Under the pieces are notes generated by a model. It saw only the letters and a list, made by a program, of their open reading frames with translations, searched no databases and had not been told where the DNA came from. Positions 23,177-37,902 of a DNA stretch of 64,000 nt are shown here, piece by piece; positions within the stretch are counted from its first letter, which is position 1; every line of letters starts with the position of its first letter. A program made the translations under genes and the position numbers. Origin of the DNA: Gammaproteobacteria bacterium (GTDB taxonomy: Bacteria; Pseudomonadota; Gammaproteobacteria; Pseudomonadales; Oceanobacteraceae); assembly GCA_013373125.1 (NCBI GenBank), contig JABXIK010000075.1, forward strand, positions 11,845 through 75,844. The letters run 5' to 3'.

Positions 23177-23188
23177 GGCAGAGCTGAT

Positions 23189-23482: not shown

Positions 23483-23516
23483 ATTTTCAGTGTACTCAGA
23501 AAATAGATTTTAAATC

Positions 23517-23590: not shown

Positions 23591-23595
23591 GAACA

Positions 23596-23898: not shown

Positions 23899-23902
23899 GT
23901 TC

Positions 23903-24003: not shown

Positions 24004-24011
24004 GTATAAAT

Positions 24012-24437: not shown

Positions 24438-24448
24438 TTTCAAAGCAC

Positions 24449-24524
24449 TATTAACAAATCCAGCCAAAATCGCCAGCAAGCTGGCTGGACTCGTTTCACT
24501 CGCCTTTGCTGGCAAACGTTATTT
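24449..24524 (+). repeat. attC12 (76 bp)
   Basis: TATTAAC...GTTATTT; near-identical to attC7. Confidence 0.92.
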
Positions 24525-24533
24525 ATCGCGGTA

Positions 24534-25142: not shown

Positions 25143-25206
25143 ACTATTGGCATAAGTAATCGTTAATGTGTCAAGTACAAAAAGTACGCAGTATAAGCTT
25201 CAAACT

Positions 25207-25254
25207 AAATAACAAATCGTTCTTGCGGATGAACCGCAAAACTAGGCGTTAGGA
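25207..25254 (+). repeat. attC13, minimal 48-bp site
   Basis: AAATAAC-AAATC-GTTCTTGC-GGATGAACC-GCAAAAC-TAGGC-GTTAGGA. Confidence 0.9.
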
Positions 25255-25260
25255 ATACTT

Positions 25261-25602
25261 ATGTTGGATACTGAACGTTCAATATTAATTTGGTTTAGTG
25301 TTGCTATGATTCCCACTGTGATCTATTCAATAATTCAGATTGCCTTTTACAGTGGTTTAAAAAATAATTTCCCTAAGCAATGGGAGCACGCTGGCCGACC
25401 TACAATATGGTCTGACGGTAGCTGGGTCACTTCCGGTCATGTTATTGATTACCTGCGAAATGAAAAGTTTAGAGAAAGTAATGACACACTAGGTATGGAA
25501 TATTGTAGGAATAATAGAAAAGCTATGATTCTAAGTTATTGGCTATCTATATATTCATGTGGCGCATTCTTTATTTTTCTTCTTATTACTGCATATTGGT
25601 AA
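25261..25602 (+). CDS. Cassette 14: UspB-like two-TM membrane protein
   Basis: Size (113 aa), topology and the pattern LKNxxP...YL...KFR...D...C..NR...IL parallel E. coli UspB; aligned by eye. Confidence 0.55.
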   Translation: MLDTERSILIWFSVAMIPTVIYSIIQIAFYSGLKNNFPKQWEHAGRPTIWSDGSWVTSGHVIDYLRNEKFRESNDTLGMEYCRNNRKAMILSYWLSIYSCGAFFIFLLITAYW

Positions 25603-25615
25603 CACAAGTGGCTAC

Positions 25616-25699
25616 TCCTAGCAAAGCAAGGCACAACCGCACAGCGAGCTGTGCTGGACTCACTCATACTTCACTCGCCTGTGCTTGCGGGCGTTACAA
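25616..25699 (+). repeat. attC14 (84 bp) with mutated inverse core
   Basis: R'' reads TCCTAGC instead of TCCTAAC; R' is GTTACAA. Confidence 0.85.
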
Positions 25700-25705
25700 G
25701 GCACA

Positions 25706-25993
25706 ATGAAATTAAGAGCCTGAGTTCATTTGTTAACTTCATTTACCTTCATGTCTCTATTGGGGATGGAGTTTATAGCTTTTCTAATAGCTAACTTTTT
25801 CGACGGAGTATGGGTTTTAATTGTTGCGGGCCAATTGATACTTTTGACTTTAGCTGTATTTTGGATGCACAAAGTAACATCTATTAAATGTGTATCTTGT
25901 GGGAAGCCTTATGGAGTATTGATTGGTATAGAGTGCTGGCCATCCTTACCACCTAGGTGCCAAAGTTGTGGAAGTGATATGGATGCCTTGTAA
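25706..25993 (+). pseudogene. Cassette 15: membrane protein with C-terminal CxxC...CxxC; in-frame TGA at codon 6
   Basis: ATG AAA TTA AGA GCC TGA GTT CAT TTG... is in frame with the supplied ORF 25730-25993. Confidence 0.65.
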
Positions 25994-26058
25994 TAAAAAA
26001 ATGATCGCCCTAAGAGCTGGACTTCACTACGTTCGGCCCATTACTAAGGGCGCTACGA
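25988..26058 (+). repeat. attC15, degenerate terminal site (71 bp)
   Basis: R'' TTGTAAT (AAC to AAT) and R' GCTACGA (GTT to GCT); internal CACTACGTTCG module retained. Confidence 0.7.
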
Positions 26059-26066
26059 ATTAAAAC

Positions 26067-26312
26067 ATGCTTAAAAAACTAAACCAATTACTAGAATCCA
26101 TTCCATATCCGCTCTTACTGGTCATGAGTGTGTTTATGTTGATCGCGCCCATTCAGCCTGAGCCGCACTTAGTGCAAAAGTTTCATTGGTTGGTGAAGGG
26201 GTTACCGTTTAAGGCGATTGATGTGTTTGATGTGTTCTGGCACTTGTTGCCATTGTTTCTGTTAGGGTTGAAATTTTTCTTGGCTAGGCATTATCAACGG
26301 CCTCACTCTTAA
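26067..26312 (+). CDS. Small conserved-looking membrane protein
   Basis: PxxPEPHLxxK...IDVFDVFWH pattern; no downstream attC, so treated as chromosomal. Confidence 0.7.
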   Translation: MLKKLNQLLESIPYPLLLVMSVFMLIAPIQPEPHLVQKFHWLVKGLPFKAIDVFDVFWHLLPLFLLGLKFFLARHYQRPHS

Positions 26313-26324
26313 AGCGCGAGCGTA

Positions 26325-27347
26325 TTAACGTTCACGCTCACGAAATTCTCCGGGTGTCATACCCAGCCAGCTTTTAAAACTACGATGAAATGATCTTGGT
26401 TCGCTAAAACCTAAGCGCGCGGCAATGTCTTGAATAGAAAGTTCGCTGCTAATGAGTAAATGTTTGGCTTGTTCTTGGCGAACGTCATCTAAAATATTTT
26501 GGTAGCTGGTGTCATGCTGTTGCAGGCGACGTTGCATGGTGCGTTCTGACATGCCGAGACGTTTGGCCACCATTTCTTTTCGAGGGATGCCTTCTACTAA
26601 TAATCCCTTAATCACATTTTTGGTTTGCATGGGTAATGGCTGTTTGTCGCTGATGTTGGCCATTAATATGTCGGCGTGATTTTCTAGGGTTTTTAGCAGT
26701 TGTTCGTCGGGTTGGCGCATGGGTAGGGCCAGTAGTTTTTGATCAATGATCAAAGAGCTGTGGTCGCAGTTAAATTCCATGGGGCACTGAAACATGCTTT
26801 GAAATTGCAACATGGCATTGTGATCCGGTTGCGGAAATTCAAAATAGATTTTGCGGGGATTGCCGTTGGGTTTGTCGGTAAGAAAGCGGGCAAAGTTAAT
26901 CCACGAGCCCAGTACGTTGGCGATCATATGTGGGCGCACCGTTGGGTCTGGGTAGTGGCAGTGCCAACGCATTTCGATGGCGCCATCGTCTTGTGAGAGA
27001 ACTTCTGTGTGTCCCATGTCGCCCACTAAGCGCTCATAGGTGGGGGTGATCTTGATGGCTTCTTTAAGGCTTTTGCAATTCATTACCATGTAGCCTAAAA
27101 CACTGTAGGAGCCTGCTTGCACGTAGCGCGAGCTTTTTAAACCAAAGCAGGGGTCTTGTGTGGCGCGGGCTAGATAAGCCAGAACACGCTGAAACTCTTC
27201 GCCTGTGATGCGCTTTACATCATTATTTAAGACTTCCAAGCTCACGTCGTTTGCGTTGAGCACGTGGGCAGGGTCTAGCCCATAGTCGGCAGCGGCTTTT
27301 AGATATTGCAATATGGCCGGTGATGAAGCATAACCTAGGTGATTCAT
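26325..27347 (-). CDS. AraC-family regulator (long N-terminal ligand domain; GliR/PA3027-like)
   Basis: C-terminal double HTH (VAKRLGMSERTMQRRL...LGFSEPRSFHRSFKSWLGMTPGEFR); divergent from the AGPS operon. Confidence 0.92.
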   Translation of the reverse strand: MNHLGYASSPAILQYLKAAADYGLDPAHVLNANDVSLEVLNNDVKRITGEEFQRVLAYLARATQDPCFGLKSSRYVQAGSYSVLGYMVMNCKSLKEAIKITPTYERLVGDMGHTEVLSQDDGAIEMRWHCHYPDPTVRPHMIANVLGSWINFARFLTDKPNGNPRKIYFEFPQPDHNAMLQFQSMFQCPMEFNCDHSSLIIDQKLLALPMRQPDEQLLKTLENHADILMANISDKQPLPMQTKNVIKGLLVEGIPRKEMVAKRLGMSERTMQRRLQQHDTSYQNILDDVRQEQAKHLLISSELSIQDIAARLGFSEPRSFHRSFKSWLGMTPGEFRERER

Positions 27348-27508
27348 GGCGAATAAAGTTCTCTTATGATTATTCTGACTTTATTTGTACGGACGATGGC
27401 ATTTTATGACAGTGTATCCAAATGAGCCAACGTTATGATGGCTGCCATAATAACGTCAGATAAAATACGCGTCTATTTCTTACAAAAATAAATCTTTAGG
27501 AGTGGGTT

Positions 27509-29113
27509 ATGCGCCGCTGGAATGGTTGGGGTGATGATGGTTTTGAAATGGCCACCCCAGAAAATGGTATTCGCTATTTAAATAGTAAAGTGGCGGCCGG
27601 TACTGTGTTGCCGGATGCTGATTTACAAGATGTGTGTGCGCAAGTGCCTGCCACCAGATTGCCTCAGCATCCGTTAATTAGCACTAAAGCCGAAGATCGT
27701 GTGCGTCATGCGCGTGGCCAAAGTTTGCCAGATTGGTTAGCAATGCGAAGCGGTGATTTTGGTGTATTCCCTGATGGTGTGAGCTTTCCGCAAAGCACTG
27801 AACAAGTGGAAGAGTTACTACAGTTTGCGTATTTGCATGATATCGAAGTCATTCCTTATGGTGGGGGGACCAGTGTGGCGGGGCATATTAATCCGCTGCA
27901 AAGTGAGAAACCTGTGTTGACCATCGACATGGGTCACATGAATACCTTGTTAGATTTAAATACCGATAGCCAAATCGCAACGTTTGGTGCAGGTGTGCCT
28001 GGCCCTCAAGTGGAAGCCCAGTTGCGTGCGAGGGGTTACACCTTGGGCCACTTCCCGCAATCGTGGGAGTTGTCTACGTTAGGTGGTTGGGTGGCGAGCC
28101 GTTCTAGTGGTCAGCAGTCTTTGCGTTATGGCCGCATCGAGCAAATGTTTGCTGGTGGCACCATGGTTACGCCAAAAGGACGATGGGATATTCCTACCAT
28201 TCCTGCATCATCTGCAGGGCCTGATGCGAGAGAAATGGTGTTAGGTAGTGAAGGCCGCATGGGCATCATTACCGAAGTGAAAGTACGTGTTACGCCTTTA
28301 GCTCAACAAGAAACGTTTTATGCTGTGTTCTTACCGAGCTTTGAAGCCGCAAAAAATGCAGTACGAAACATCGTACAAAACAAAATTCCGCTTTCTATGT
28401 TACGTGTGAGTAACGCGCTTGAAACAGAAACCCAGCTAAAATTAGCCGGACATGAAACGTTAATTGCATGGCTTGAACGTTACTTGTCATTGCGTGGCGT
28501 GGGAGAAGGAAAGTGCTTGTTAACCTTTGGTGTAACCGGTAACAAACAACAAAACAAAGTTTCTCTTAAGCAGGCGTTTAAAATATTTAAACAGTTTGGG
28601 GGCGTTAAAGGCCCGGCAATGATGGGCGAAAAGTGGGCGGAGAATCGCTTTAAATTCCCTTATTTGCGTGAAAACTTATGGCTTGAAGGCTATGCGGTGG
28701 ATACGTTTGAAACCGCAACCGACTGGCATCGCGTAACCGATTTAATGAACGCCATGGAAGACAGTGTGCGCACAGCGCTGAGTGAAGAGGGCATTGTGCC
28801 TCATGTTTATACTCACTTGTCGCACATGTACACCCAAGGTTGCAGCATCTACACAACTTATGTGTTTCCAAATGCGGACAGCTATGAAGCGACTCTTGAG
28901 CGTTGGAAAAAAATCAAACACGCTGCCAGTACCACAGTGGCAAACGGTCATGCCACCATTAGTCACCAACATGGTGTAGGTAAAGATCATGCGCCGTATA
29001 TGCCAGCTGAAAAAGGCGAACTGGGTATGCACAGTATTCAAGTGTTGGTCGATGGCTTTGACCCCAAACAATTACTCAATCCGGGCACGCTGTTAGAGCG
29101 TCACCCTAAGTAA
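27509..29113 (+). CDS. Alkylglycerone-phosphate (alkyl-DHAP) synthase-like FAD oxidoreductase
   Basis: PYGGGTSV, GHFPQSWELSTLGGWVASRSSG, HMYTQGCSIY and SHQHGVG parallel the eukaryotic AGPS motifs. Confidence 0.88.
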   Translation: MRRWNGWGDDGFEMATPENGIRYLNSKVAAGTVLPDADLQDVCAQVPATRLPQHPLISTKAEDRVRHARGQSLPDWLAMRSGDFGVFPDGVSFPQSTEQVEELLQFAYLHDIEVIPYGGGTSVAGHINPLQSEKPVLTIDMGHMNTLLDLNTDSQIATFGAGVPGPQVEAQLRARGYTLGHFPQSWELSTLGGWVASRSSGQQSLRYGRIEQMFAGGTMVTPKGRWDIPTIPASSAGPDAREMVLGSEGRMGIITEVKVRVTPLAQQETFYAVFLPSFEAAKNAVRNIVQNKIPLSMLRVSNALETETQLKLAGHETLIAWLERYLSLRGVGEGKCLLTFGVTGNKQQNKVSLKQAFKIFKQFGGVKGPAMMGEKWAENRFKFPYLRENLWLEGYAVDTFETATDWHRVTDLMNAMEDSVRTALSEEGIVPHVYTHLSHMYTQGCSIYTTYVFPNADSYEATLERWKKIKHAASTTVANGHATISHQHGVGKDHAPYMPAEKGELGMHSIQVLVDGFDPKQLLNPGTLLERHPK

Positions 29114-29132
29114 ATATTGGAATAGGAATATC

Positions 29133-30725
29133 ATGGATACATGGCAGTCACCTGAACGTCTACAAACGCTAGCAACCATTAAGCGTACAACGCAGTGGGA
29201 TATGTTAGTGATTGGCGGTGGTATTACGGGTGTGGGGATTGCGCGTGAAGCTGCGCGCCAAGGATTGTCCGTTTTACTGTTGGAGCAAAAAGATATTGCG
29301 TGGGGGACGTCCAGTCGTTCCTCAAAAATGGTCCATGGTGGCTTACGATATTTAGCTTCAGGCAATTTAAAGTTAACCAGCCACTCAGTGAAAGAACGCG
29401 AGCGCTTAATGGATGAAGCGCCGGGCTTGGTGGATTTAATGGCATACAGCTGGCCTCATTACAAAGGGCAGTTTCCTGGGCCTAAAGTATTTTCGATTTT
29501 ATTGGCTTTGTATGATCGCTTTGCTGGGCAAAAGTATCGTCACTTTATTGATAAGCAAGAAGCGCTGTATGAGTTACCCGGCTTAAGTGAAGACGGTTTA
29601 TTAGGCGCGACTCGTTTTGCCGATGCGGTGACGGATGATTCACGTTTGGTCATGCGTGTCTTAAACGAAGCGCATAATGATGGCGCCATCAGTTTGAATT
29701 ACTGCCAAGTAGATGAAATGCAGTATCAAAATGATCGCGTCAGTGGTGTTATTGCAACCGATCAAGTAACTGGTGAGCGTTATGAAATTTCAGCTAATGT
29801 CGTAGTGAGTGCCACAGGTGCTTGGGCAGATAAATTTCGTAAGCAGCTTGGGCAAGAAGGAAAGATTCGCCCATTACGTGGCAGCCATTTAATGATCCCG
29901 GCTTGGCGCTTGCCTTGTGCTCAATCTATTACCCTTAAGCATCCGGTAGATGGACGCAGTATGTTCATTTATCCATGGGAAGGATTAACTGTCATTGGCA
30001 CCACGGATTTGGATCATCCTGAGGTGGATAGTACAGAGCCAAGTATTCAGCCTGCCGAAGTGGATTATTTACTAAAAGCGGCAAATCACCTGTTTCCAAA
30101 ATCGAATTTAGAAAAGACCGATATCGTGGCAACGTTTGCCGGTGTACGCCCCATTGTATCGGGTGGCGCATTGAATCCTTCTTCAGAAAAACGTGATCAC
30201 AGCATTTGGGATGACAAAGGACTCATTACCGTCAGTGGCGGTAAATTGACCACGTTCCGTTTGATTGCATTGGATGTTTTAAAAGCGGCCAGTGTGTACT
30301 TCAAACAGCTGAACTATAAAGATTTAGGTCAACGTATTTTTAATGATGCAAAAGCATCGTCACAACAGTTCTCTTTACTTGAAACACAATGGCAACGTCG
30401 CTTATTAGGCTTTTATGGTCAGCAAATTGATGACGTGTGTGAGTGTGCGCAAGAAGAAGGTTGGGCTTTAGTGCCAGGCACCATGACGTATTGGGCGCAA
30501 GTGCGCTTTGCCGCACGTAGCGAGTTTGTTGTGAATCTAGATGATTTATTACTGCGTCGTACTCGCATTGGCTTGTGTGTGGGCGAAGGTGGTCGAGCGT
30601 TCGAAGAAAAAATAAAACATATTTGTCAGCAAGAGTTGCAATGGGATGACGCCCAATGGCAGCAGCAGTGGCAAAACTATTTGGCCGTTTGGCAGCGTTA
30701 TTATTCGTTGCCAGAAAGTGCATAG
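29133..30725 (+). CDS. Glycerol-3-phosphate dehydrogenase/oxidase family (GlpD2-like)
   Basis: IGGGITG, GTSSRSSKMVHGGLRYL, IGTTD, GVRP and GGKLTTFR motifs. Confidence 0.92.
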   Translation: MDTWQSPERLQTLATIKRTTQWDMLVIGGGITGVGIAREAARQGLSVLLLEQKDIAWGTSSRSSKMVHGGLRYLASGNLKLTSHSVKERERLMDEAPGLVDLMAYSWPHYKGQFPGPKVFSILLALYDRFAGQKYRHFIDKQEALYELPGLSEDGLLGATRFADAVTDDSRLVMRVLNEAHNDGAISLNYCQVDEMQYQNDRVSGVIATDQVTGERYEISANVVVSATGAWADKFRKQLGQEGKIRPLRGSHLMIPAWRLPCAQSITLKHPVDGRSMFIYPWEGLTVIGTTDLDHPEVDSTEPSIQPAEVDYLLKAANHLFPKSNLEKTDIVATFAGVRPIVSGGALNPSSEKRDHSIWDDKGLITVSGGKLTTFRLIALDVLKAASVYFKQLNYKDLGQRIFNDAKASSQQFSLLETQWQRRLLGFYGQQIDDVCECAQEEGWALVPGTMTYWAQVRFAARSEFVVNLDDLLLRRTRIGLCVGEGGRAFEEKIKHICQQELQWDDAQWQQQWQNYLAVWQRYYSLPESA

Positions 30726-30764
30726 TAAACAATAAAAACAAGAAAATAGATTTCAGGTTGATTC

Positions 30765-32324
30765 ATGCAGTCGCAATACATTCTCACCATTGATAATGGC
30801 ACGCAAAGCGTTCGTGCTTTGCTGTTCGACTTACAAGGTCAGTTAATGGCAAAAGGTAAGGTTGAAATAGAACCTTACTTTTCTAAGCAGCCCGGCTGGG
30901 CTGAGCAAGATCCTGAGTATTATTGGCAATGTGCAGGGGAAGCCTGCAAGGCCCTTTGGGCTGAGACAGATATTTCGCCTGAATCGGTAATCGGTGTGGG
31001 GCTGACTACACAACGGGGCACCATGATCAACTTGGATCAAGATGGTAAACCGTTAAGGCCAGCCATTATCTGGTTGGATCAACGTCAAGCTGAAATAGAA
31101 AAGCCTATTTCTGGTTTATGGGGCATTTTGTTTAAAGTTTTGGGCTTGAATCCTGTGATTCATGGATTTCAACGCAAGGCACAAGCTGCATGGATCGAGC
31201 AAAATCAACCGGATATCTGGCATAAAACCCATAAGTTTTTATTGTTAAGCGGCTACTTAACTTATCGCTTAACGGGTGAGTACAAAGATTCTGTGGGGTG
31301 CACGGTTGGGTATTTACCGTTCGATTATAAACATCACAAGTGGGCCGCAAAAAGTGATTGGAAGTGGCAAGTAGCCAACGTTGCAGATGACATGTTGCCA
31401 GAGCTGGTTAAACCCGGTGAACAGCTTGGGCGTTTAACCCAAGACGCAGCTGAGCATTTAGGTTTGCCTGTGGGCTTGCCTTTGATTGCATGTGCATCGG
31501 ATAAGGCGTGTGAAGTGATTGGCAGTGGAGCATTAGACCCACACATTGCCTGTTTAAGTTACGGCACCACGGCTACGATTAATACCACGACAAAAAAATA
31601 CGTGGAGCCTGTGCAGTTTATTCCACCTTATCCAGCGGCAATTCCCAATGCTTACAATACCGAGGTCATGATTTATCGTGGTTTTTGGATGGTGAGTTGG
31701 TTTAAAAAACAATTTGGTTTGCGTGAACAACAAATAGCCGACGATCGAGGTGTCGCCCCTGAAGTGTTGTTTGATGAATTGGTGAATTCGGTTCCGGCGG
31801 GTTCCATGGGGTTGATGTTGCAACCTTATTGGTCTCCGGGTACGCGCATTCCGGGGCCTGAAGCAAAAGGAGCGGTTATCGGGTTTGGTGACGTGCACAC
31901 GCGTGCGCACTTGTATCGCTCTATTTTGGAAGGTTTGGCTTATGGTTTGCGCGAAGGCAAAGAGCGTATAGAAAAGCGCAGTGGCACCAAGATTACAAAA
32001 TTGCGCATCAGTGGTGGCGGTAGTCAAAGTGATGCTGCCATGCAATTAACGGCCAATATTTTTAATTTGCCGGCAGAGCGCCCGAGTACTTACGAAACAT
32101 CAGGCTTGGGTGCAGCGATTAATGTGGCGGTCGGTTTGGGGCGTTATTCAAATTACGAACAAGCCATTGATCAGATGACATCAGTAGGACAGGTGTTTGA
32201 ACCGGATTTTCAAACCAGTCGTTTATATGATCAATTATATAAAAATGTGTATTTGAAAATGTATAAACGCTTACAACCCTTGTATCGGCAAATTAAAGAA
32301 ATCACGGGTTACCCAAAAGCATAA
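30765..32324 (+). CDS. FGGY-family carbohydrate kinase (glycerol-kinase-like)
   Basis: IDNGTQSVRA, PGWAEQDP, SYGTTAT and SGGGSQS motifs. Confidence 0.92.
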   Translation: MQSQYILTIDNGTQSVRALLFDLQGQLMAKGKVEIEPYFSKQPGWAEQDPEYYWQCAGEACKALWAETDISPESVIGVGLTTQRGTMINLDQDGKPLRPAIIWLDQRQAEIEKPISGLWGILFKVLGLNPVIHGFQRKAQAAWIEQNQPDIWHKTHKFLLLSGYLTYRLTGEYKDSVGCTVGYLPFDYKHHKWAAKSDWKWQVANVADDMLPELVKPGEQLGRLTQDAAEHLGLPVGLPLIACASDKACEVIGSGALDPHIACLSYGTTATINTTTKKYVEPVQFIPPYPAAIPNAYNTEVMIYRGFWMVSWFKKQFGLREQQIADDRGVAPEVLFDELVNSVPAGSMGLMLQPYWSPGTRIPGPEAKGAVIGFGDVHTRAHLYRSILEGLAYGLREGKERIEKRSGTKITKLRISGGGSQSDAAMQLTANIFNLPAERPSTYETSGLGAAINVAVGLGRYSNYEQAIDQMTSVGQVFEPDFQTSRLYDQLYKNVYLKMYKRLQPLYRQIKEITGYPKA

Positions 32325-32533
32325 AATAAAATTCTCCAAGGCGATGCAAATCGCCTTTTTTGATTCTTTTCTAATCAATTTTCTAATATTCATTTGTGCA
32401 CTTTTCACATTTTTGCCGATTGTTAAACACAATTTGGCGCATTTGGTGTATTCTTCGCCGCTTTTGAGCTTGGTCAAAATAAGCCATTGGGTTTTTCTTG
32501 ATCAAAAAAACAGCGAAGGAAACCGTGTTTGTG

Positions 32534-34285
32534 ATGGTTAAAAATAAAATAGCGAAATCGATTCAAGCTGGATTGTTGGCATCAGGTCTGCTGACAGCTG
32601 TGTCTTCCCATGGTGTTGAGTTCTTCATGGATGTAGAAGGCAGTTTCACTTCTCAATTATCCATTGGTTCCAGCTGGCGTGTAAGTGATCAAGATGAGCG
32701 CTTGTTAGCACCAGGTAACAATAATGATGGCAATGCGAACTTTGAAAAAGGCGATGCTTTTTCACAAATCTTTAAAGGCAGTCATGACCTGCATTTGCGT
32801 AGCGGTAATCACGGTGTATTTGTACGCGGTAAATATTGGCACGACTTCGCATTAGAAGAGGGTGAATTTGATCATGGTCATTCTGCTAATGGTTTTACAT
32901 CTGAAGAAAAATTAAACGATAAAGAGTTTAATGAGCTTTCAAAGTTTTCAGGCGCTGCGCTTTTAGACGCGTATGTGTACGGCATGTACGAAATCGGTTA
33001 CACACCCATTGATGTGCGTTTAGGTCGCCAAGTGGTGAGTTGGGGCGAAAGCACATTTATTTTAGGCGGTGTGAATTCCATTAACCCTGTGGATGTGAAT
33101 GCGTTTCGTCGCCCAGGTGCTGAGATTAAAGAAGGTTTGTTGCCGGTTAACATGGCGTACGTGAATATTGGTTTAACCGAATTTTTGTCTATGGAAGCCT
33201 TTTATCAATTGGAATTCCAAGAGACGGTAATTCCAGGTTGCGGCACTTACTTCGCGTTTAACGACTACGCCCCAGAGGGTTGTAATCAAGTTATTTTAAC
33301 CTCAGATGCTTTAGCTGGTTTGGGTGATGCTCAGCGTTCTGCAGGTGGTTATGTGATTATTCGTGATGCAAATGGTAACCGCTTGGCTAAGGATGAAGGC
33401 CAGTACGGTATTGCTTTTCGTTATATGAGCGAAGCACTAGGTGATACGGAATTTGGTTTTTATGCCATGAACATTCACAGCCGTTTACCTGTGGTTAATG
33501 GTATTAAATCTGCGACTTGGGGCGCAGCCGCGAGTCCTTCAGATGCAGATCAACTGACAGCCATTAACAATAATAAAGACGGTACTTTTTATTATGTAAC
33601 GTACCCTGAAGATATTCAGTTAGCGGGTTTAAGCTTTTCAACCAATGTAGGCTCCATGGCGGTGTCTGGTGAAATTAGTCATAAAAAAGATGTGCCACTA
33701 CAAATTAACGCCACCATGTTGTTAGGTGCAGGTTTAACGGGTTTGTCTACGTCAACTAAGTTGATGGCGGATGTGGCGGCAACGGCAAACGGTGCGGACT
33801 TTGAAGGCTATCGCTTGTTTGATGTGAGTCAGGCACAATTCACCATGTTGCAATTTTTTGATCGATTCTTAGGTGCAAGCCGCTATACCTTAATTGCAGA
33901 AGCCGGTTACACCTTTATTCATGACTTTGATGAAAGTGATGATGCGATTAAATTCAGTCGTGCGGGTGTATTTGATGGCGAAGAGGGTGGTTTTGTGACA
34001 GAACGCTCTTGGGGCTATCGCGCTCGTTTAGTAGGCGAATATAATAATGCATTTGCAGGTGTGAACTTAAAACCAACCTTGGCGTTTTCTCACGATGTAG
34101 AAGGCTTTGCGCCACAGCCAGGTGGTGCATTTAAAGAAGGTGAACAATCTGTTGGTTTCACTTTGCAAGCTGACTACGCGTCTATGTACAGTGCCAGTGT
34201 GTCTTATACCGAATACATGGGTGGTGATTACAGCCTAACGTCTGATCGTGATTTTGTTTCTGTCAGTATGAGCGTACAGTTCTAA
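32534..34285 (+). CDS. DUF1302-family outer-membrane beta-barrel protein
   Basis: Signal peptide; NDGNANF, GRQVVSWGES, NPVDVNAFRRPGAEIKE and DRDFVSVSMSVQF (terminal Phe). Confidence 0.88.
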   Translation: MVKNKIAKSIQAGLLASGLLTAVSSHGVEFFMDVEGSFTSQLSIGSSWRVSDQDERLLAPGNNNDGNANFEKGDAFSQIFKGSHDLHLRSGNHGVFVRGKYWHDFALEEGEFDHGHSANGFTSEEKLNDKEFNELSKFSGAALLDAYVYGMYEIGYTPIDVRLGRQVVSWGESTFILGGVNSINPVDVNAFRRPGAEIKEGLLPVNMAYVNIGLTEFLSMEAFYQLEFQETVIPGCGTYFAFNDYAPEGCNQVILTSDALAGLGDAQRSAGGYVIIRDANGNRLAKDEGQYGIAFRYMSEALGDTEFGFYAMNIHSRLPVVNGIKSATWGAAASPSDADQLTAINNNKDGTFYYVTYPEDIQLAGLSFSTNVGSMAVSGEISHKKDVPLQINATMLLGAGLTGLSTSTKLMADVAATANGADFEGYRLFDVSQAQFTMLQFFDRFLGASRYTLIAEAGYTFIHDFDESDDAIKFSRAGVFDGEEGGFVTERSWGYRARLVGEYNNAFAGVNLKPTLAFSHDVEGFAPQPGGAFKEGEQSVGFTLQADYASMYSASVSYTEYMGGDYSLTSDRDFVSVSMSVQF

Positions 34286-34301
34286 TGACAATTTAAAGTA
34301 C

Positions 34302-34335
34302 CAATAAAAAAGGGCCTGTTGGCCCTTTTTTATTG
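34302..34335. terminator. Bidirectional intrinsic terminator
   Basis: Perfect 15-bp inverted repeat CAATAAAAAAGGGCC-TGTT-GGCCCTTTTTTATTG. Confidence 0.92.
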
Positions 34336-34342
34336 TGTGGCA

Positions 34343-35563
34343 TTAAGCGGTTTGCATAACGTCATTTTGTTTTTGAATTTGGTAGAGCCAAATAAAAGAG
34401 ATGATACCTAAAGCCAGTATTGTAAAGCTTAACCAACTTGGGGCAGTGACAACCCAGATCGAGTTGGCGAGTAAGCATGCATATTTAATCAGCTCCAATA
34501 CTAAACTGTGTTTATGATTCTCTTGCATACGACCTAAGCTGTATAAACCTAACGCCAACGTTAAGCCCACAGAAAAATGTTGGTACATGGCCAGCTCTTT
34601 CACGTTATGCATGAGCAAAAATACACCTAATGTCACGACGGCTAATTGTACGATGGCGTACCATTTGGCAGATAGGCTCAGTGGTGTGTCATATTTTTCT
34701 ACGGCCCCATTGCTCTTGATAAGCGGGTATTTGGCTTCCACATCCGCTGGACGATAGCCTGTACGGCGAAACCAAAGCGTGAATTTATCTTTCCAATTAT
34801 TGGTGCGCCAAGCATCTTTGCAAAGGGATGTCACAAAGTGCAGATTCCCCCAGATTGGGTTCCAACTGGCCAGTTGAGTGCTGATGCCAAAAATGACTTT
34901 TTCGTTAACCAATTCCGGTTGGAACGTTCCAAAGATTCGATCCCATAAAATGAAAACGCCGCCATAGTTTTTGTCTACATACACTTTATTTTTAGCATGA
35001 TGAACACGGTGATTACTTGGGGTTACAAAAATAAACTCGTACCAGTTTGGCATTTTATCAATGGCTTGAGTGTGTACCCAAAACTGATAAAGCAAGTTCA
35101 ACGAACCAACGGCCACTAGAACCACAGGCGGGAAGCCCATAAAGGCCAGTGGTATGTAGAATACCCATCCAATGACATTAGGAACGCTGGTTTGGCGTAG
35201 TGCGGTTGTGAGGTTATATTCTTCGCTGGAGTGGTGGATCACATGACTGGCCCAAGAAATATTCATGGTATGGCCAATGCGATGCACCCAGTAATAACTG
35301 AAATCATACAGCACAAATGCGGCTAACCAAGTCCATACATTGCTTTGCCATTCGAACAGGGCAAAGTCTTCATAAAAATACACATAAAATGAAAACGGCA
35401 CGGCTGCATAAAGAATTTGCGTGATGCGACTCATAATGCCCATGGCTAGGGAGTTGATCGCATCATTGAGGCGATACACATTTTGCTTTTTATATGTGGT
35501 CCAAGCGAGCTCAAGCACTATGAGCACAAAGAACACAGGAATGGCCATTAAAATATAATTCAT
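34343..35563 (-). CDS. Alkylglycerol monooxygenase (AGMO/TMEM195)-like di-iron membrane hydroxylase
   Basis: YYWVHRIGH, HVIHHSSEEYNLTTALRQ, QFWVHT, TPSNHRVHH, DKNYGG and WDRIFGTF, plus the AGMO-type C-terminal TM extension (KWYAIVQ...SLG...LELIKY); start moved to 35563. Confidence 0.82.
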   Translation of the reverse strand: MNYILMAIPVFFVLIVLELAWTTYKKQNVYRLNDAINSLAMGIMSRITQILYAAVPFSFYVYFYEDFALFEWQSNVWTWLAAFVLYDFSYYWVHRIGHTMNISWASHVIHHSSEEYNLTTALRQTSVPNVIGWVFYIPLAFMGFPPVVLVAVGSLNLLYQFWVHTQAIDKMPNWYEFIFVTPSNHRVHHAKNKVYVDKNYGGVFILWDRIFGTFQPELVNEKVIFGISTQLASWNPIWGNLHFVTSLCKDAWRTNNWKDKFTLWFRRTGYRPADVEAKYPLIKSNGAVEKYDTPLSLSAKWYAIVQLAVVTLGVFLLMHNVKELAMYQHFSVGLTLALGLYSLGRMQENHKHSLVLELIKYACLLANSIWVVTAPSWLSFTILALGIISFIWLYQIQKQNDVMQTA

Positions 35564-35673
35564 CGTTATTCTCGTTATTATTTTGATGAGTTTATCTTTG
35601 TAGATTGGACTGAAACCCACAATGACCCTAGGGGTCACATAGTGATCCTAGGTGCCATTTATGGGGTTTAAGG

Positions 35674-36243
35674 TCATATTGGCTTGGTATTGAGGTGGCG
35701 ACTGCTTAAAGTGATCAGAACGTAAAAGCTGCTTAAACACAGGTGGAAGACCCCAATTCGCAGGCTTTCATCTTGAATGATGGCGCCCCAGACAAGGGTG
35801 CTAAGTAACAAGATAACTCCGGCTATCCCCATGTAGAGTGCTTGCATATTCTGACGAACCTTAAAGATCAAAACCAAGCTGAGTATCACGATATAGGCAT
35901 CGCTGATGATGCCGATTGGGGTTAAGTAGTTAATTACAGTGAAGATGAGCGCAAGGCCCACCAAACCATAGGGCAGAGCTCTAGGCGTTAGAGTTTGCCA
36001 GAGTAGAGCGATAAGGAAGCTGGCCATGGCGAAGTGTTTGCCCGCAAAGCTCAGTTCTTTGTGCCACTCTAGAGTATTGGCAAGTTCGAGATAACGTAGT
36101 AAACCCATAACTGCTGCACCAAAGGTGATGCCTAAAGCGACATAGATTAGTGGGTGACGTTTTTGTTGGGCGCCTTGTTTTGCTGAAAATAATAAGGCGC
36201 TTAATAGCAAGAGTTCAGATAGGCCGGCAATGTACATAATCAT
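35674..36243 (-). CDS. Hypothetical polytopic membrane protein (about 6 TM)
   Basis: Almost entirely hydrophobic 189-aa ORF. Confidence 0.8.
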   Translation of the reverse strand: MIMYIAGLSELLLLSALLFSAKQGAQQKRHPLIYVALGITFGAAVMGLLRYLELANTLEWHKELSFAGKHFAMASFLIALLWQTLTPRALPYGLVGLALIFTVINYLTPIGIISDAYIVILSLVLIFKVRQNMQALYMGIAGVILLLSTLVWGAIIQDESLRIGVFHLCLSSFYVLITLSSRHLNTKPI

Positions 36244-36296
36244 CTCTTATTTTTATTTATTGCCAGCCTACTGGGCTTTGGAATATAAGAATAGGT

Positions 36297-37232
36297 TTAA
36301 CTTGGCCGAGTTGGGTTGAGTGTGGTTGGAGCCAAGTTGATCAGGTCAGCCAGTGCAACTATGCATATTAAGAAAAGGACTAAGAAACCTAAGCCCATCC
36401 AAAAATAGCGCTTAGCGATGCCAGTTTGATCATCTGTGCCAATGATGTATGGCAAGCCCTTATGTTTTTCCATGATGTGCTGTTCTGGTTGAGACGCTAA
36501 TTGATCTTTAATGTCTTGAGCTTCTAGTTGGGCGGCTAAGCGTACCAATTTCCACTCTTTCATATCTAAAGAGCCGTCGCCATTGCGATCGAAACGCGCT
36601 AACAGTTGATCGTAATCTTTTTTCCAAGTGGCAATGAGTTTATTCACCGCAGAATCGTGTTTGTGAGAATCTATGGCTCTTAGGGTTTTGAAATAACCCA
36701 ATGCATAAATAGGGCTGCTTTCAATAATGAGCTCTTCCGTATATCGATAGTCGCCAAATTGTAAAAAGCTTTCTTTGCGTTTAATACTCAATTCTGTGGG
36801 ATAGGGTGAGCTGCCACTCCAAGTGGATTTTAACGATGTGTGAATGCTGGCGCCTTTAATACTTAGCATGCATTGACCCGTTGGGTCTTCCATTAAAATT
36901 GGGCCTGGATGTTGCCCCCGTTGAATGGTTCGCCAACTGGTGGTTTTGCCATTATCTTCTTTACGTTCGATAGAAAATCGATACCACAGGCAGGGTGTGC
37001 GAGACAGTGGCGATAAAATCGGGTGTTTGAGTGTGCGACCAATGCCTTCGAGTTCAACAAAGCCTTGGGCCGCCGAACGAATTTTAGACGTGGGAGTGTC
37101 TTTAATTAAGCGAGCAATGCGCAGGTGATGCGCGAAAAACCATAAACTGCCAATAGAAAATAAAATGACAAAGGCTAATGCCCCCCAATACACGGGGGGA
37201 TCAAGTTGTTGAACAAATTGAGCTGATAACAT
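36297..37232 (-). CDS. GIDE-domain-like membrane protein with an EF-hand
   Basis: TPTSKIRSAAQGFVELEG...YTEELI pattern; canonical EF-hand loop DRNGDGSLDMKE; TM segments at both ends. Confidence 0.7.
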   Translation of the reverse strand: MLSAQFVQQLDPPVYWGALAFVILFSIGSLWFFAHHLRIARLIKDTPTSKIRSAAQGFVELEGIGRTLKHPILSPLSRTPCLWYRFSIERKEDNGKTTSWRTIQRGQHPGPILMEDPTGQCMLSIKGASIHTSLKSTWSGSSPYPTELSIKRKESFLQFGDYRYTEELIIESSPIYALGYFKTLRAIDSHKHDSAVNKLIATWKKDYDQLLARFDRNGDGSLDMKEWKLVRLAAQLEAQDIKDQLASQPEQHIMEKHKGLPYIIGTDDQTGIAKRYFWMGLGFLVLFLICIVALADLINLAPTTLNPTRPS

Positions 37233-37234
37233 GT

Positions 37235-37810: not shown

Positions 37811-37902
37811 AGTTTTTATACTCCTTTAATGCAGGCTAAAGGCTACCAGAAACAGATGAAATGCCAATCAATAATACGTAGGTAAAAGGTGAAAATGTGA
37901 GA

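What the first reader, a model, noticed from the sequence alone, without database searches (positions are those of the whole stretch)
26325..35660. Candidate dual-route bacterial ether-lipid (alkylglycerol) utilisation island
Seen: an AraC regulator divergent from an AGPS-like, GlpD-like and FGGY-kinase operon, followed by a DUF1302 outer-membrane protein and a convergent full-length AGMO homologue. Established: AGPS exchanges acyl and alkyl chains on DHAP, and AGMO cleaves the O-alkyl ether bond. The AraC/AGPS/GlpD2/kinase core matches P. aeruginosa GliR (PA3027) with PA3026-PA3024, whose substrate is not established to my knowledge; there the operon continues with a lipid kinase rather than DUF1302/AGMO. 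Inference: alkylglycerol enters via DUF1302, the kinase makes alkyl-G3P, the GlpD-like enzyme makes alkyl-DHAP, and AGPS run in reverse releases a fatty alcohol. AGMO would give a parallel oxidative route. Two independent ether-bond enzymes next to a lipid-uptake barrel suggest scavenging of marine ether lipids, feeding fadBA 16 kb away.
Basis: partly seen in the sequence, partly recalled or inferred. Interest (0 to 1): 0.85.

Follow-up and report, generated by a model that had tools for sequence, protein, structure and literature searches.

The report
GliR-type glycerolipid operon with added neighbours
A Bermanella chromosome carries the widespread but functionally unsolved GliR-type operon (ether-lipid-synthase-like flavoenzyme, glycerol-3-phosphate-dehydrogenase-like enzyme, sugar-type kinase), and in this genus an outer-membrane barrel and an animal-type ether-lipid-cleaving-like hydroxylase sit beside it, which makes ether-lipid breakdown a plausible, testable but unproven function.

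Summary
The AraC regulator plus AGPS-like, GlpD-like and FGGY-kinase genes are the Bermanella version of the P. aeruginosa GliR/PA3026-PA3024 cluster. That cluster occurs in more than 580 species genomes inside a core-genome neighbourhood shared with Pseudomonas (CheV, MOSC, Slt, ABC-F, fadBA, topA). It is therefore not an island, and the nearby fadBA is inherited synteny.

The locus has three transcription units:
- The operon ends at a strong terminator.
- DUF1302 has its own promoter. In this sub-lineage that promoter carries a 13-nt box identical to the conserved box in the AraC/AGPS promoter.
- The hydroxylase is convergent, behind a bidirectional terminator.

DUF1302 and the hydroxylase flank the operon only in Bermanella-type genomes. 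The AGPS-like protein keeps the AGPS fold and catalytic Arg/Arg/Tyr, but its HHH loop reads HQH. The kinase lacks the glycerol-kinase pocket residues, and the dehydrogenase keeps the G3P-binding residues. The hydroxylase matches the essential AGMO residues but has Thr in place of the pterin-binding Glu.

The best reading is catabolism of a 1-O-substituted glycerol lipid. The "dual route" idea is only weakly supported.

The parts
26325..27347 (-). AraC-family regulator, a GliR (PA3027) homologue, divergent from the operon
   Evidence: Pfam Arabinose_bd + HTH_18. NCBIfam GliR model scores 422.6 bits over the full length, below the 570 cut-off. It is conserved divergently upstream of the operon in 69 loci.
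27376..27430 (.). Conserved operator-like block in the divergent promoter: TGACTTTATTTG, TGGCATTTTATGAC (27397-27410) and GTGTATCCAAATGAGCCAA (27412-27430). The last reads TTGGCTCATTTGG on the - strand.
   Evidence: The block is conserved across Bermanella loci with 72-96% AGPS identity, and in B. marisrubri. Each half-site matches P. aeruginosa GliR motif A (PMC8151288) at 12 of 15 positions, by my own comparison.
27509..29113 (+). AGPS-like flavoenzyme (PA3026 homologue)
   Evidence: PDB 2uuu E=5e-73. The AF2 model has pLDDT 82.5, and the top 37 Foldseek hits are all AGPS with TM 0.74-0.87 (0.79-0.87 for 36 of them). The catalytic residues R352, R447 and Y508 of Dictyostelium AGPS correspond to R299, R387 and Y448, which are invariant. 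The HHH loop reads H486-Q487-H488.
29133..30725 (+). GlpD-like FAD dehydrogenase (PA3025 homologue)
   Evidence: DAO + DAO_C. The NCBIfam GlpD model scores 286 bits against a 360 cut-off. Residues R54, H233, R317, R332 and K354 of E. coli GlpD are conserved in the alignment to 2qcu.
30765..32324 (+). FGGY-family kinase (PA3024 homologue), not a canonical glycerol kinase
   Evidence: FGGY_N + FGGY_C. XylB scores 273 bits and GlpK 179 bits, both below their cut-offs. The glycerol-kinase pocket residues are replaced: R-E becomes R-G, the Y135 region is XylB-like, D-Q becomes D-K, and F270 becomes T.
32338..32365 (+). Intrinsic terminator that ends the three-gene operon
   Evidence: An 8-bp GC-rich stem followed by a T-run, starting 14 nt after the kinase stop codon. 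Folding energy is -11.6 kcal/mol, z=-2.9. Equivalent hairpins occur in L001, L002, L003, L019 and L020.
32434..32453 (+). Operator-like box TTGGCGCATTTGG-TGTATTC in the DUF1302 promoter region
   Evidence: This is one of only two exact TTGGCNCATTTGG sites in the 64 kb window; the other is in the AraC/AGPS promoter. It is exact in L001 and L002 and differs by one mismatch in L003, L019 and L020, although the flanking sequence has diverged. Only the GTATCC core is kept in B. marisrubri and L102.
32534..34285 (+). Orphan DUF1302 outer-membrane beta-barrel, its own transcription unit (the ORF caller starts it at 32498)
   Evidence: Pfam DUF1302 at 524 bits. A signal-peptide-like N-terminus is present. 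There is no DUF1329 partner, whereas 78 of 80 other DUF1302 loci have one directly downstream.
34306..34331 (.). Bidirectional intrinsic terminator between the convergent DUF1302 and hydroxylase genes
   Evidence: Sequence AAAAAAGGGCCTGTTGGCCCTTTTTT. Folding energy is -24.8 and -23.2 kcal/mol on the two strands, z -5.4 and -6.0.
34343..35563 (-). AGMO-family di-iron membrane hydroxylase, the Thr-variant clade (the ORF caller extends it to 35638)
   Evidence: FA_hydroxylase at 104 bits. JGI and NCBI name family members alkylglycerol monooxygenase. The nine His plus Q, D, N, Y, W and D that are essential in human AGMO (PMC7911779) align with the same spacing. The residue equivalent to the pterin-binding Glu137 is Thr99.
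35674..36243 (-). 189-aa multi-pass membrane protein upstream of the hydroxylase on the same strand; possibly co-transcribed
   Evidence: No family hit was found. It is hydrophobic throughout. It recurs upstream of the hydroxylase in L001, L003, L020, L023, L182, L183 and L180.

Best explanation
The locus is three separate transcription units at a conserved core-chromosome site, not one island.

Unit 1 is the Bermanella member of the GliR-type module: an AraC activator divergent from an AGPS-like / GlpD-like / FGGY-kinase operon. I think this operon is a self-contained catabolic route for a 1-O-substituted glycerol lipid, most plausibly 1-O-alkylglycerol and otherwise monoacylglycerol. The inferred steps are:
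1. The non-canonical kinase phosphorylates sn-3.
2. The GlpD-like flavoprotein oxidises C2 and passes electrons to the quinone pool, giving a 1-substituted DHAP.
3. The AGPS-like flavoenzyme uses its flavin-N5 chemistry at C1 to release the substituent. The product is either DHAP plus a fatty alcohol or acid, or acyl-DHAP by exchange.

Unit 2 is an orphan DUF1302 outer-membrane barrel. It was probably recruited into the same regulon in this sub-lineage to pass a hydrophobic substrate through the outer membrane.

Unit 3 is an AGMO-family di-iron hydroxylase, possibly transcribed with a small membrane protein. It is an inherited neighbour in the Bermanella clade. Its link to the operon is unproven, and because it lacks the pterin-binding Glu its cofactor or substrate may differ from animal AGMO.

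Shown here: gene identities, fold, conserved residues, transcription-unit boundaries, phylogenetic distribution and the shared promoter box. Inferred: substrate, reaction direction, co-regulation, and any role of the hydroxylase.
For: - AGPS identity at sequence, residue and fold level: E=5e-73; R299, R387 and Y448 correspond to the catalytic R352, R447 and Y508; TM 0.79-0.87 to AGPS for 36 of its 37 chains against 0.63-0.68 for D-LDH.
- The kinase lacks the glycerol-kinase pocket residues E84, Y135, Q246 and F270. The dehydrogenase keeps the GlpD G3P-site residues. Together these imply a glycerol-phosphate-like substrate that carries an extra group.
- The three genes travel together, without a transporter or other enzymes, in more than 580 genomes. 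This suggests a self-contained pathway for a membrane-permeant substrate.
- Lipid-related genes recur beside the operon: YegS lipid kinase in Pseudomonas, DUF1302-DUF1329 in the P. koreensis group, Fe-ADH in Hahella, PhoD in Colwelliaceae, and FA_hydroxylases in Bermanella and two Endozoicomonas genomes.
- GliR in P. aeruginosa also activates the phospholipase C gene PlcA (PMC8151288).
- DUF1302/DUF1329 are needed for growth on Tween 20 and butyl stearate in P. putida.
- Terminators define three transcription units.
- The shared box is conserved in six genomes. AraC-type regulators commonly sit upstream of DUF1302-DUF1329 pairs (PMC13499233).
- The operon-DUF1302-hydroxylase arrangement is kept in B. 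marisrubri at 63-82% protein identity.
Against: - No substrate has been shown for any member of this cluster. A P. aeruginosa deletion of PA3026-PA3024 had no phenotype on glycerol or on Biolog plates, and GliR activated its promoter in E. coli without an added ligand (PMC8151288).
- I found no evidence that AGPS enzymes run in the ether-cleaving direction.
- The catalytic HHH loop is HQH in every bacterial member, so the chemistry may differ.
- The kinase pocket resembles xylulokinases as much as anything else.
- The promoter box was found post hoc. I estimate a chance probability of about 0.02 for a 12-of-13 match between the two regions. It is not conserved in B. marisrubri or in L102.
- The slot between the kinase gene and the EAL-HDOD gene is variable. 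It also holds LemA, GIDE-like, HD, GNAT and GGDEF genes, so adjacency there carries little weight.
- The hydroxylase family is a stand-alone gene elsewhere. In Pseudomonas it lies next to hemB-ppk-ppx.
Confidence: 0.4

Rival explanations
1. One reading: one dual-route alkylglycerol utilisation island. DUF1302 imports alkylglycerol. The operon cleaves it non-oxidatively by reverse AGPS. The AGMO homologue cleaves it oxidatively in parallel. Both routes feed fadBA.
For: - The AGMO-type essential residues are present.
- The hydroxylase is adjacent to the operon across the Bermanella clade, down to 55% identity.
- A different FA_hydroxylase follows the operon in two Endozoicomonas genomes.
- A shared box links DUF1302 to the operon promoter.
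Against: - The hydroxylase is convergent, lies behind a bidirectional terminator, and has no shared box.
- It lacks the AGMO-specific pterin-binding Glu (Thr99).
- In 78 of 80 family loci none of these partners lies within 10 kb.
- Related genomes have the operon without the hydroxylase or DUF1302 (L009, L010, L012, L155).
- fadBA proximity is synteny shared with Pseudomonas, and the region is not an island.
Confidence: 0.12
2. The biosynthetic reading proposed in the GliR paper: glycerol to G3P to DHAP, then acyl-DHAP to alkyl-DHAP, so the operon makes ether-lipid precursors. A variant starts from monoacylglycerol or lysophosphatidate and uses fatty alcohols, which are abundant in alkane degraders.
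For: - AGPS normally works in the synthetic direction, and its catalytic residues are kept.
- The host range is rich in hydrocarbon and lipid degraders that generate fatty alcohols: Marinobacter, Oleispira, Thalassolituus, Hahella, Pseudomonas.
- This is the scheme given in PMC8151288.
Against: - No DHAP acyltransferase or alkyl-DHAP reductase lies in or near the operon in any of about 100 loci.
- The kinase lacks the glycerol-binding residues.
- From my own knowledge, ether lipids are not reported for these genera.
- An inducible AraC-controlled operon suits catabolism better than membrane biosynthesis.
Confidence: 0.15
3. A soluble polyol or sugar-alcohol pathway of the erythritol type (FGGY kinase plus GlpD-like polyol-phosphate dehydrogenase), with the AGPS-like protein acting as an ordinary FAD-linked oxidase or isomerase on a phosphorylated ketose. 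DUF1302 and the hydroxylase would be unrelated neighbours.
For: - The kinase scores best against the xylulokinase model, and parts of its pocket look XylB-like.
- From my own knowledge, Brucella EryA and EryB are an FGGY kinase and a GlpD homologue.
- The slot next to the operon is a variable hot spot.
Against: - The AGPS-specific fold includes the N-terminal domain, and the catalytic Arg/Arg/Tyr are invariant.
- The GlpD G3P-site residues are conserved.
- No sugar transporter, isomerase or aldolase accompanies the operon in any lineage.
- The recurrent neighbours are lipid-related.
Confidence: 0.15
4. A redundant glycerol / glycerol-3-phosphate catabolic operon (a GlpK and GlpD paralogue pair) with an accessory flavoprotein of unrelated function.
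For: - The GlpD-like active site is intact.
- PMC8151288 reports that some genomes carrying the cluster lack other glpK and glpD genes.
Against: - The kinase lacks the glycerol-kinase residues E84, Y135, Q246 and F270 and is below the GlpK cut-offs.
- The AGPS-like gene is invariably the first gene of the operon.
- Deleting the cluster had no effect on growth on glycerol in P. aeruginosa, although redundancy could explain that.
Confidence: 0.1

Closest known systems
P. aeruginosa GliR (PA3027) with the PA3026-PA3024 operon (Kotecka et al. 2021, PMC8151288)
   Same: An AraC regulator of the same subfamily sits divergent from AGPS-like, GlpD-like and FGGY-kinase genes in the same order. The chromosomal neighbourhood is shared (CheV, MOSC, Slt, ABC-F, fadBA, topA). 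The half-sites in the divergent promoter resemble GliR motif A.
   Different: There is no YegS-type lipid kinase (PA3023) here. The regulator scores below the GliR equivalog cut-off (422 against 570 bits). In Bermanella an orphan DUF1302 and an AGMO-family hydroxylase occupy the slot after the kinase gene. The function of the Pseudomonas cluster is itself unknown.
Eukaryotic alkyl-DHAP synthase (AGPS, EC 2.5.1.26; PDB 2uuu, 4bby)
   Same: The match covers the full-length fold, including the N-terminal domain. The FAD-binding and cap domains and the catalytic Arg/Arg/Tyr are shared.
   Different: The HHH loop reads HQH. There is no peroxisomal targeting. The gene is embedded in an inducible operon with a kinase and a dehydrogenase, which suggests the opposite (catabolic) direction or a different leaving group. 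Activity is untested.
Animal alkylglycerol monooxygenase (AGMO/TMEM195)
   Same: Both have the eight-His motif, the ninth His, and the equivalents of Q162, D233, N235, Y236, W243 and D244 at the same spacing. Length is similar (406 against 445 aa), and both are multi-pass membrane proteins.
   Different: The window protein has Thr where AGMO has the pterin-binding Glu137; 66 of 80 bacterial relatives do have Glu. The C-terminal AGMP_C domain is not detected in the window protein. No bacterial member has been characterised.
DUF1302/DUF1329 outer-membrane system (PP_0765/PP_0766 of P. putida; Sama_1588/1589)
   Same: It is the same Pfam family, an 18-stranded barrel according to PMC13499233. Like many members, it is associated with AraC-type regulators and with the use of hydrophobic substrates.
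   Different: The DUF1329 lipoprotein partner that follows DUF1302 in 78 of 80 other loci is missing. No BNR or RND partner genes are adjacent.
Mammalian alkylglycerol salvage kinase (ACAD10 kinase domain; bioRxiv 10.1101/2025.09.10.675409)
   Same: It catalyses the reaction proposed here for the first step, 1-O-alkylglycerol to 1-O-alkyl-G3P.
   Different: The paper describes a kinase domain inside an acyl-CoA-dehydrogenase-family protein that serves salvage into membrane lipids, not catabolism. My recollection that this domain is APH-like, and so unrelated to FGGY kinases, was not checked here.

Membership tests
GliR / PA3026-PA3024 cluster | AraC regulator that matches the GliR equivalog model | tested here: inconclusive
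   NF050186 aligns over the full length at 422.6 bits, E=1e-126, but the curated cut-off is 570. Identity to Pseudomonas orthologues is 44-50%.
GliR / PA3026-PA3024 cluster | Divergent AGPS-like, GlpD-like and FGGY genes in this order | tested here: met
   The order is the same in about 100 loci, including Pseudomonas.
GliR / PA3026-PA3024 cluster | YegS-type lipid kinase (PA3023) downstream | tested here: not met
   It is present in Pseudomonas loci (TIGR03702 at 438 bits). It is absent from the window and from all Bermanella loci.
GliR / PA3026-PA3024 cluster | GliR binding motifs A and B in the divergent promoter | tested here: inconclusive
   Two conserved half-sites match motif A at 12 of 15 positions each. 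Binding was not tested.
Alkyl-DHAP synthase (AGPS) | VAO-type FAD fold with the AGPS-specific N-terminal and cap regions | tested here: met
   The Foldseek top 37 hits are all AGPS, TM 0.74-0.87 (0.79-0.87 for 36 of them), against 0.63-0.68 for D-LDH. Model pLDDT is 82.5.
Alkyl-DHAP synthase (AGPS) | Catalytic Arg352, Arg447 and Tyr508 (Dictyostelium numbering) | tested here: met
   R299, R387 and Y448 align to them and are invariant in 26 bacterial sequences. The residue roles come from PMC3509576.
Alkyl-DHAP synthase (AGPS) | His-His-His active-site loop | tested here: not met
   The loop is SHQHGVG here, and H486-Q487-H488 is invariant. The importance of this loop is from my own memory of the AGPS structures.
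Alkyl-DHAP synthase (AGPS) | Acyl/alkyl exchange on DHAP | not testable with these tools
   This needs an enzyme assay.
Alkylglycerol monooxygenase (AGMO) | Eight-His motif plus the ninth essential His | tested here: met
   H94, 98, 107, 110, 111, 164, 185, 188 and 189 correspond to human H132, 136, 145, 148, 149, 201, 221, 224 and 225. Spacing is equal within one residue.
Alkylglycerol monooxygenase (AGMO) | Additional essential residues Q162, D233, N235, Y236, W243 and D244 | tested here: met
   Q124, D197, N199, Y200, W207 and D208 lie at identical offsets. No animal AGMO sequence was available for a direct alignment.
Alkylglycerol monooxygenase (AGMO) | Glu next to the second His (Glu137, tetrahydrobiopterin interaction), unique to AGMO among FA hydroxylases | tested here: not met
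   The residue is Thr99 in the window protein and in the Bermanella clade. It is Glu in 66 of 80 family loci.
Alkylglycerol monooxygenase (AGMO) | AGMO C-terminal domain (Pfam PF24858) | tested here: inconclusive
   The window protein gives no hit even at E<=10. Relatives P0092 and P0112 score 24.6-24.7 bits against a 28.3 cut-off.
Glycerol kinase (GlpK) | Glycerol-binding residues (E. coli R83, E84, W103, Y135, D245, Q246, F270) | tested here: not met
   R, W and D are kept. E becomes G, the Y135 region is XylB-like, Q becomes K and F becomes T in the alignment to glycerol kinase 2zf5. The residue list is from memory. The GlpK models score 179 bits against cut-offs of 498 and 590.
Aerobic G3P dehydrogenase (GlpD) | FAD DAO fold, C-terminal domain and G3P-site residues | tested here: met
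   DAO + DAO_C. R54, H233, R317, R332 and K354 are conserved against 2qcu (residue list partly from memory). The protein is below the equivalog cut-off at 286 against 360 bits, so it is a paralogue.
DUF1302/DUF1329 outer-membrane system | DUF1302 barrel with an adjacent DUF1329 lipoprotein | tested here: not met
   DUF1302 scores 524 bits, but no DUF1329 is present in the window. DUF1329 follows DUF1302 in 78 of 80 other loci.

The most novel reading that the evidence does not exclude
The AGPS-like / GlpD-like / FGGY operon, present in more than 580 gammaproteobacterial species including P. aeruginosa, is the first bacterial pathway for breaking down 1-O-alkylglycerol ether lipids. It would work non-oxidatively: kinase, then quinone-linked dehydrogenase, then a flavin-N5 'reverse AGPS' ether cleavage that yields DHAP plus a fatty alcohol. 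In Bermanella it would be extended by a dedicated outer-membrane barrel and a pterin-independent AGMO-like oxidative route.
Probability: 0.2. Interest if true: 0.85.

Novelty: new variant of a known kind. Interest (0 to 1): 0.5.

Why it matters
The GliR-type operon is conserved in hundreds of species, including P. aeruginosa, marine oil degraders and coral and sponge symbionts, yet no substrate is known for it. The residue-level evidence here narrows the search to 1-substituted glycerols: the kinase is not a glycerol kinase, the dehydrogenase still binds a G3P-like moiety, and the AGPS catalytic core is intact.

If alkylglycerols are the substrate, this would be the first bacterial ether-lipid catabolic route and a new, non-oxidative way to break an ether bond. 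That would bear on the turnover of abundant marine and host ether lipids.

Separately, a large bacterial family carries the AGMO-specific residues, and most members also carry the pterin-binding Glu. That makes bacterial AGMO activity directly testable. B. marisrubri is cultured and has the same gene arrangement, so the experiments are feasible.

Tried and rejected
- **Island idea:** rejected. The GC profile is flat across the locus, and the flanking genes are syntenic with Pseudomonas.
- **fadBA link:** rejected as inherited synteny.
- **DUF1302 inside the operon:** rejected. A terminator follows the kinase gene and DUF1302 has its own promoter region.
- **Conserved partners of the hydroxylase outside Bermanella:** none found. 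Neighbours are hemB, ppk, ppx, DedA and DJ-1, and one apparent 'partner' was a spurious antisense ORF in GC-rich Pseudomonas DNA.
- **Homology between the 189-aa membrane protein and neighbours of the hydroxylase elsewhere:** only one weak hit.
- **P. aeruginosa GliR motifs A and B in the P. koreensis-group loci:** the degenerate motifs hit too often in GC-rich DNA to mean much. Two conserved sites lie between the kinase gene and the DUF1302 cluster, which is a lead only.
- **Literature on PA3024-PA3026 induction:** only incidental mentions.
- **Literature on bacterial AGMO or bacterial growth on alkylglycerols:** nothing found.
- **Metatranscriptome contigs (run X5):** they show low-level transcripts of the AGPS/GlpD, DUF1302 and hydroxylase genes but say nothing about conditions.
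- **PDB sequence search with the hydroxylase:** no hit.
- **Genome-wide co-occurrence statistics:** not possible, because each collection scan returns only the best 80 of 600 or more matches, and the candidate list is cut before ranking.

Full report
**Observation**

- 26325-27347 (-) is an AraC-family regulator with Arabinose_bd and HTH_18 domains. Its best curated match is the GliR model, over the full length at 422.6 bits, below the equivalog cut-off of 570.
- 27509-29113 (+) has FAD_binding_4 and FAD-oxidase_C domains and matches Dictyostelium and guinea-pig AGPS at E=5e-73 and 6e-59. The next family, D-lactate dehydrogenase, scores 5e-22.
- 29133-30725 (+) is GlpD-like (DAO + DAO_C).
- 30765-32324 (+) is an FGGY kinase.
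- 32498-34285 (+) is DUF1302 at 524 bits.
- 34343-35638 (-) is a FA_hydroxylase-family protein.

Two starts need refining. The hydroxylase most likely begins at the ATG at 35563, giving 406 aa, because its homologues are 405-410 aa and align from there. DUF1302 most likely begins at the ATG at 32534, followed by a signal-peptide-like sequence.

**Organism and chromosomal setting**

The window comes from a Bermanella (Oceanospirillaceae); the closest locus has 96% AGPS identity. The surrounding genes are core housekeeping genes: rne, rluC, plsX, fabF, pabC, mltG, tmk, holB and pilZ upstream, and CheV, MOSC, Slt, an RND pump, ABC-F, fadBA and topA downstream.

Pseudomonas loci show the same order around their copy of the operon: moeA, AraC, AGPS-like, GlpD-like, FGGY, sometimes pirin, YegS, CheV, MOSC, Slt. 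GC content across the locus (0.42-0.47) matches the flanks. So the locus is not an island, and fadBA 16 kb away is inherited synteny, not a functional clue. The only compositionally foreign stretch is a low-GC insert at about 16.9-26.3 kb, upstream of the regulator.

**The core module**

A profile-guided scan found the AGPS-like gene in more than 580 species genomes. In essentially all of the roughly 100 loci examined it is followed by the GlpD-like and FGGY genes. In 69 of them the AraC gene is divergent upstream. Hosts include Pseudomonas, Marinobacter, Hahella, Oleispira, Thalassolituus, Colwellia, Thalassotalea, Endozoicomonas and Halomonas.

This is the cluster described for P. aeruginosa as GliR (PA3027) with PA3026-PA3024. 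There, GliR overproduction activates the operon, the phospholipase C gene PA3464 (PlcA) and PA3342. Deletion mutants showed no phenotype on glycerol or on Biolog plates, and the substrate remains unknown (PMC8151288). Bermanella lacks that kinase here.

**What the three enzymes look like**

*AGPS-like protein.* The residues shown by mutagenesis to matter in Dictyostelium AGPS are R352, R447 and Y508 (PMC3509576). They align to R299, R387 and Y448, which are invariant in 26 bacterial homologues. An AlphaFold2 model (pLDDT 82.5) finds only AGPS structures among its first 37 PDB hits, with TM 0.79-0.87 for 36 of them (0.74 for the last). D-lactate dehydrogenases follow at 0.63-0.68. One difference stands out: the His-His-His loop reads His-Gln-His in every bacterial member.

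*Kinase.* It is about equally distant from glycerol kinases and xylulokinases. In the alignment to a glycerol kinase, the residues I recall as binding glycerol are replaced. R-E becomes R-G, the Tyr135 region looks xylulokinase-like, D-Q becomes D-K, and Phe270 becomes Thr. It is therefore not an ordinary GlpK.

*GlpD-like protein.* It scores below the GlpD equivalog cut-offs but keeps R54, H233, R317, R332 and K354 of E. coli GlpD.

Read together, the three enzymes suggest a substrate that looks like glycerol with an extra group. It would be phosphorylated, oxidised at C2 to a substituted DHAP, and handed to an enzyme whose known chemistry is exchange of the C1 substituent of DHAP. It is self-contained: no transporter or other enzyme travels with the operon. 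However, every step is inferred, and I found no evidence that AGPS enzymes run in the ether-cleaving direction.

**Transcription units**

A clean intrinsic terminator lies 14 nt after the kinase stop codon: AAGGCGAT-GCAA-ATCGCCTT plus a T-run at 32338-32365, with a folding energy of -11.6 kcal/mol. Close relatives have equivalent hairpins at the same place.

DUF1302 and the hydroxylase converge on a strong bidirectional terminator at 34306-34331, with -24.8 and -23.2 kcal/mol on the two strands. The locus is therefore three units: the operon, DUF1302 alone, and the hydroxylase, perhaps together with the 189-aa membrane protein upstream of it.

**Is DUF1302 linked to the operon?**

The AraC/AGPS intergenic region contains a block conserved across Bermanella. 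It includes GTGTATCCAAATGAGCCAA, which reads TTGGCTCATTTGG on the other strand. The only other exact TTGGCNCATTTGG in the 64-kb window lies about 90 nt upstream of the DUF1302 start, at 32434-32446. That geometry is similar to the operon promoter.

The site is exact in L001 and L002 and has one mismatch in L003, L019 and L020, although the flanking sequence has diverged. It is not kept in B. marisrubri or in Bermanella sp. R86531, where only a GTATCC core remains. I found the box post hoc and estimate a chance probability near 0.02. It is a lead, not proof.

Three independent observations add some support:
- A DUF1302-DUF1329 cluster lies directly downstream of the operon in seven P. koreensis-group genomes.
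- AraC-type regulators sit upstream of DUF1302-DUF1329 pairs in 12 of 80 loci, and the same association is noted in PMC13499233.
- DUF1302 and DUF1329 are required for growth on Tween 20 and butyl stearate in P. putida.

The Bermanella copy is unusual in lacking the DUF1329 partner that follows DUF1302 in 78 of 80 other loci. Other Bermanella paralogues do have it.

**Is the hydroxylase an AGMO, and is it linked?**

Its family is large. More than 600 genome hits were found, and JGI and NCBI name many members alkylglycerol monooxygenase.

The published essential residues of human AGMO are nine His plus Q162, D233, N235, Y236, W243 and D244 (PMC7911779). They map onto H94, 98, 107, 110, 111, 164, 185, 188 and 189 and Q124, D197, N199, Y200, W207 and D208, with the same spacing to within one residue.

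The hallmark that sets AGMO apart from other fatty-acid hydroxylases is Glu137, next to the second His, which binds tetrahydrobiopterin (PMC3617469). That position is Glu in 66 of 80 bacterial loci but Thr in the window protein and its Bermanella clade. The Pfam AGMO C-terminal domain is detected only weakly in relatives and not at all in the window protein. So this is a member of a bacterial AGMO-like family that fails one defining feature.

On linkage, the evidence is mixed:
- The convergent position next to the kinase gene is kept in B. marisrubri (63% identity) and in two more distant genomes (59% and 55%). In R86531-type genomes a 7-kb insert separates it from the operon.
- Related genomes have the operon followed directly by EAL-HDOD and CheV, with no hydroxylase (L009, L010, L012, L155).
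- One clade member sits in a different context (L180).
- In 78 of 80 family loci none of the operon genes or DUF1302 lies within 10 kb. In Pseudomonas the gene sits by hemB-ppk-ppx.
- The slot between the kinase and EAL-HDOD genes also accumulates unrelated genes: LemA, a GIDE-like protein, HD, GNAT, GGDEF and ADH.
- A different, 296-aa FA_hydroxylase follows the operon in two Endozoicomonas genomes. This is suggestive but isolated.

**Other neighbours of the operon**

Hahella has an isochorismatase and an Fe-ADH downstream of the operon. Colwelliaceae have a PhoD-like phosphatase. Endozoicomonas has a choloylglycine-hydrolase-family gene upstream of it. Together with YegS and PlcA, these lean towards lipid rather than sugar metabolism. 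None of them is conserved broadly.

**Verdict**

The core is a known cluster of unknown function, and the residue evidence favours a 1-substituted glycerol substrate. That makes alkylglycerol catabolism a reasonable hypothesis, with monoacylglycerol as an alternative. DUF1302 is a plausible lineage-specific recruit to the regulon.

The AGMO-like gene is an inherited neighbour with no demonstrated link, and it lacks the pterin-binding Glu. The 'island' and fadBA arguments fail.

Metatranscriptome contigs show only that the AGPS/GlpD, DUF1302 and hydroxylase genes are transcribed at low level in a salt marsh. No paper in the library reports a bacterial AGMO or bacterial growth on alkylglycerols. 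The hypothesis is therefore open and testable in the cultured B. marisrubri.

Noticed in passing
window 16900-26320: A low-GC insert (0.35-0.40) of about 9.4 kb lies between pilZ (16501-16848) and the AraC gene. It holds about 15 co-directional small ORFs, including a Sel1-repeat protein (17793-18425) and an HNH endonuclease (21764-22564); most have no family hit. No tRNA is nearby. In relatives the AraC gene instead abuts pilZ-holB (L183) or a hybrid sensor kinase (L179, L182, L102). It may be a mobile or toxin-immunity-type island.
   Followed up: partly
L102:14762-15700 (Bermanella sp. R86531): About 3.5 tandem copies of a ~260-bp repeat fill the gap between the kinase gene and DUF1302. Each copy contains a GC-rich palindromic REP-like element (TAAGTAGTGCGGCCGGAGCCGTAGGCGACCCCCGCAATTGGGG...). 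An inverted copy lies just before the DUF1302 promoter.
   Followed up: no
window 34343-39126 and loci L009-L012, L102, L179-L183: The slot between the FGGY kinase gene and the EAL-HDOD gene is a hot spot for variable content among related genomes. It holds different combinations of DUF1302, the hydroxylase, a 189-199-aa membrane protein, a LemA plus GIDE-like pair, and HD, GNAT, GGDEF, Zn-ADH and Na/Pi cotransporter genes.
   Followed up: partly
L024-L101 (hydroxylase family loci): Most bacterial AGMO-like proteins (66 of 80) keep the Glu that binds tetrahydrobiopterin in animal AGMO. Those in many Pseudomonas sit next to hemB-ppk-ppx and a DedA/VTT gene. A pterin-dependent bacterial AGMO would be worth testing in its own right.
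   Followed up: partly
L013:14947-16995 and L014 (Endozoicomonas): The operon is followed on the same strand by a metallo-beta-lactamase-fold (lactonase-like) protein of 372 aa and a distinct 296-aa FA_hydroxylase. That hydroxylase also has Glu after the second motif His (HRYMHE). A choloylglycine-hydrolase-family gene lies upstream.
   Followed up: partly
window ~35620-35652 (- strand): An imperfect palindrome (CCTAGGATCAC-TAT-GTGACCCCTAGG) lies just upstream of the likely hydroxylase start, inside the 5' extension that the ORF caller added. It could be an operator for an unidentified regulator.
   Followed up: no
window 36297-37810 (-): A LemA-family protein (37235-37810) is paired with a 311-aa GIDE-like membrane protein that has an EF-hand-like motif (36297-37232). 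The pair recurs together in L011, L179 and L181.
   Followed up: no
L149, L151, L159, L165, L175 (P. koreensis group), ~14910-14950: Two tandem sites resembling GliR motif A lie in the intergenic region between the kinase gene and the unknown-429-aa / DUF1302 / DUF1329 cluster. This hints that GliR may control that cluster in Pseudomonas. The degenerate motif is common in GC-rich DNA, so the evidence is weak.
   Followed up: partly
L187, L188, L198 (Bermanella MAG 9NakV-09): A single Bermanella genome carries at least four DUF1302-DUF1329 pairs elsewhere, two of them in tandem in L188. A DUF1329 partner for the orphan operon-adjacent DUF1302 could therefore be supplied in trans.
   Followed up: no
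run X1 (seawater metagenome), whole window region 26000-40300: One 2020 seawater metagenome run holds this stretch at essentially 100% identity, at a word depth of about 640. The organism apparently dominated that sample, which may have been an enrichment.
   Followed up: no
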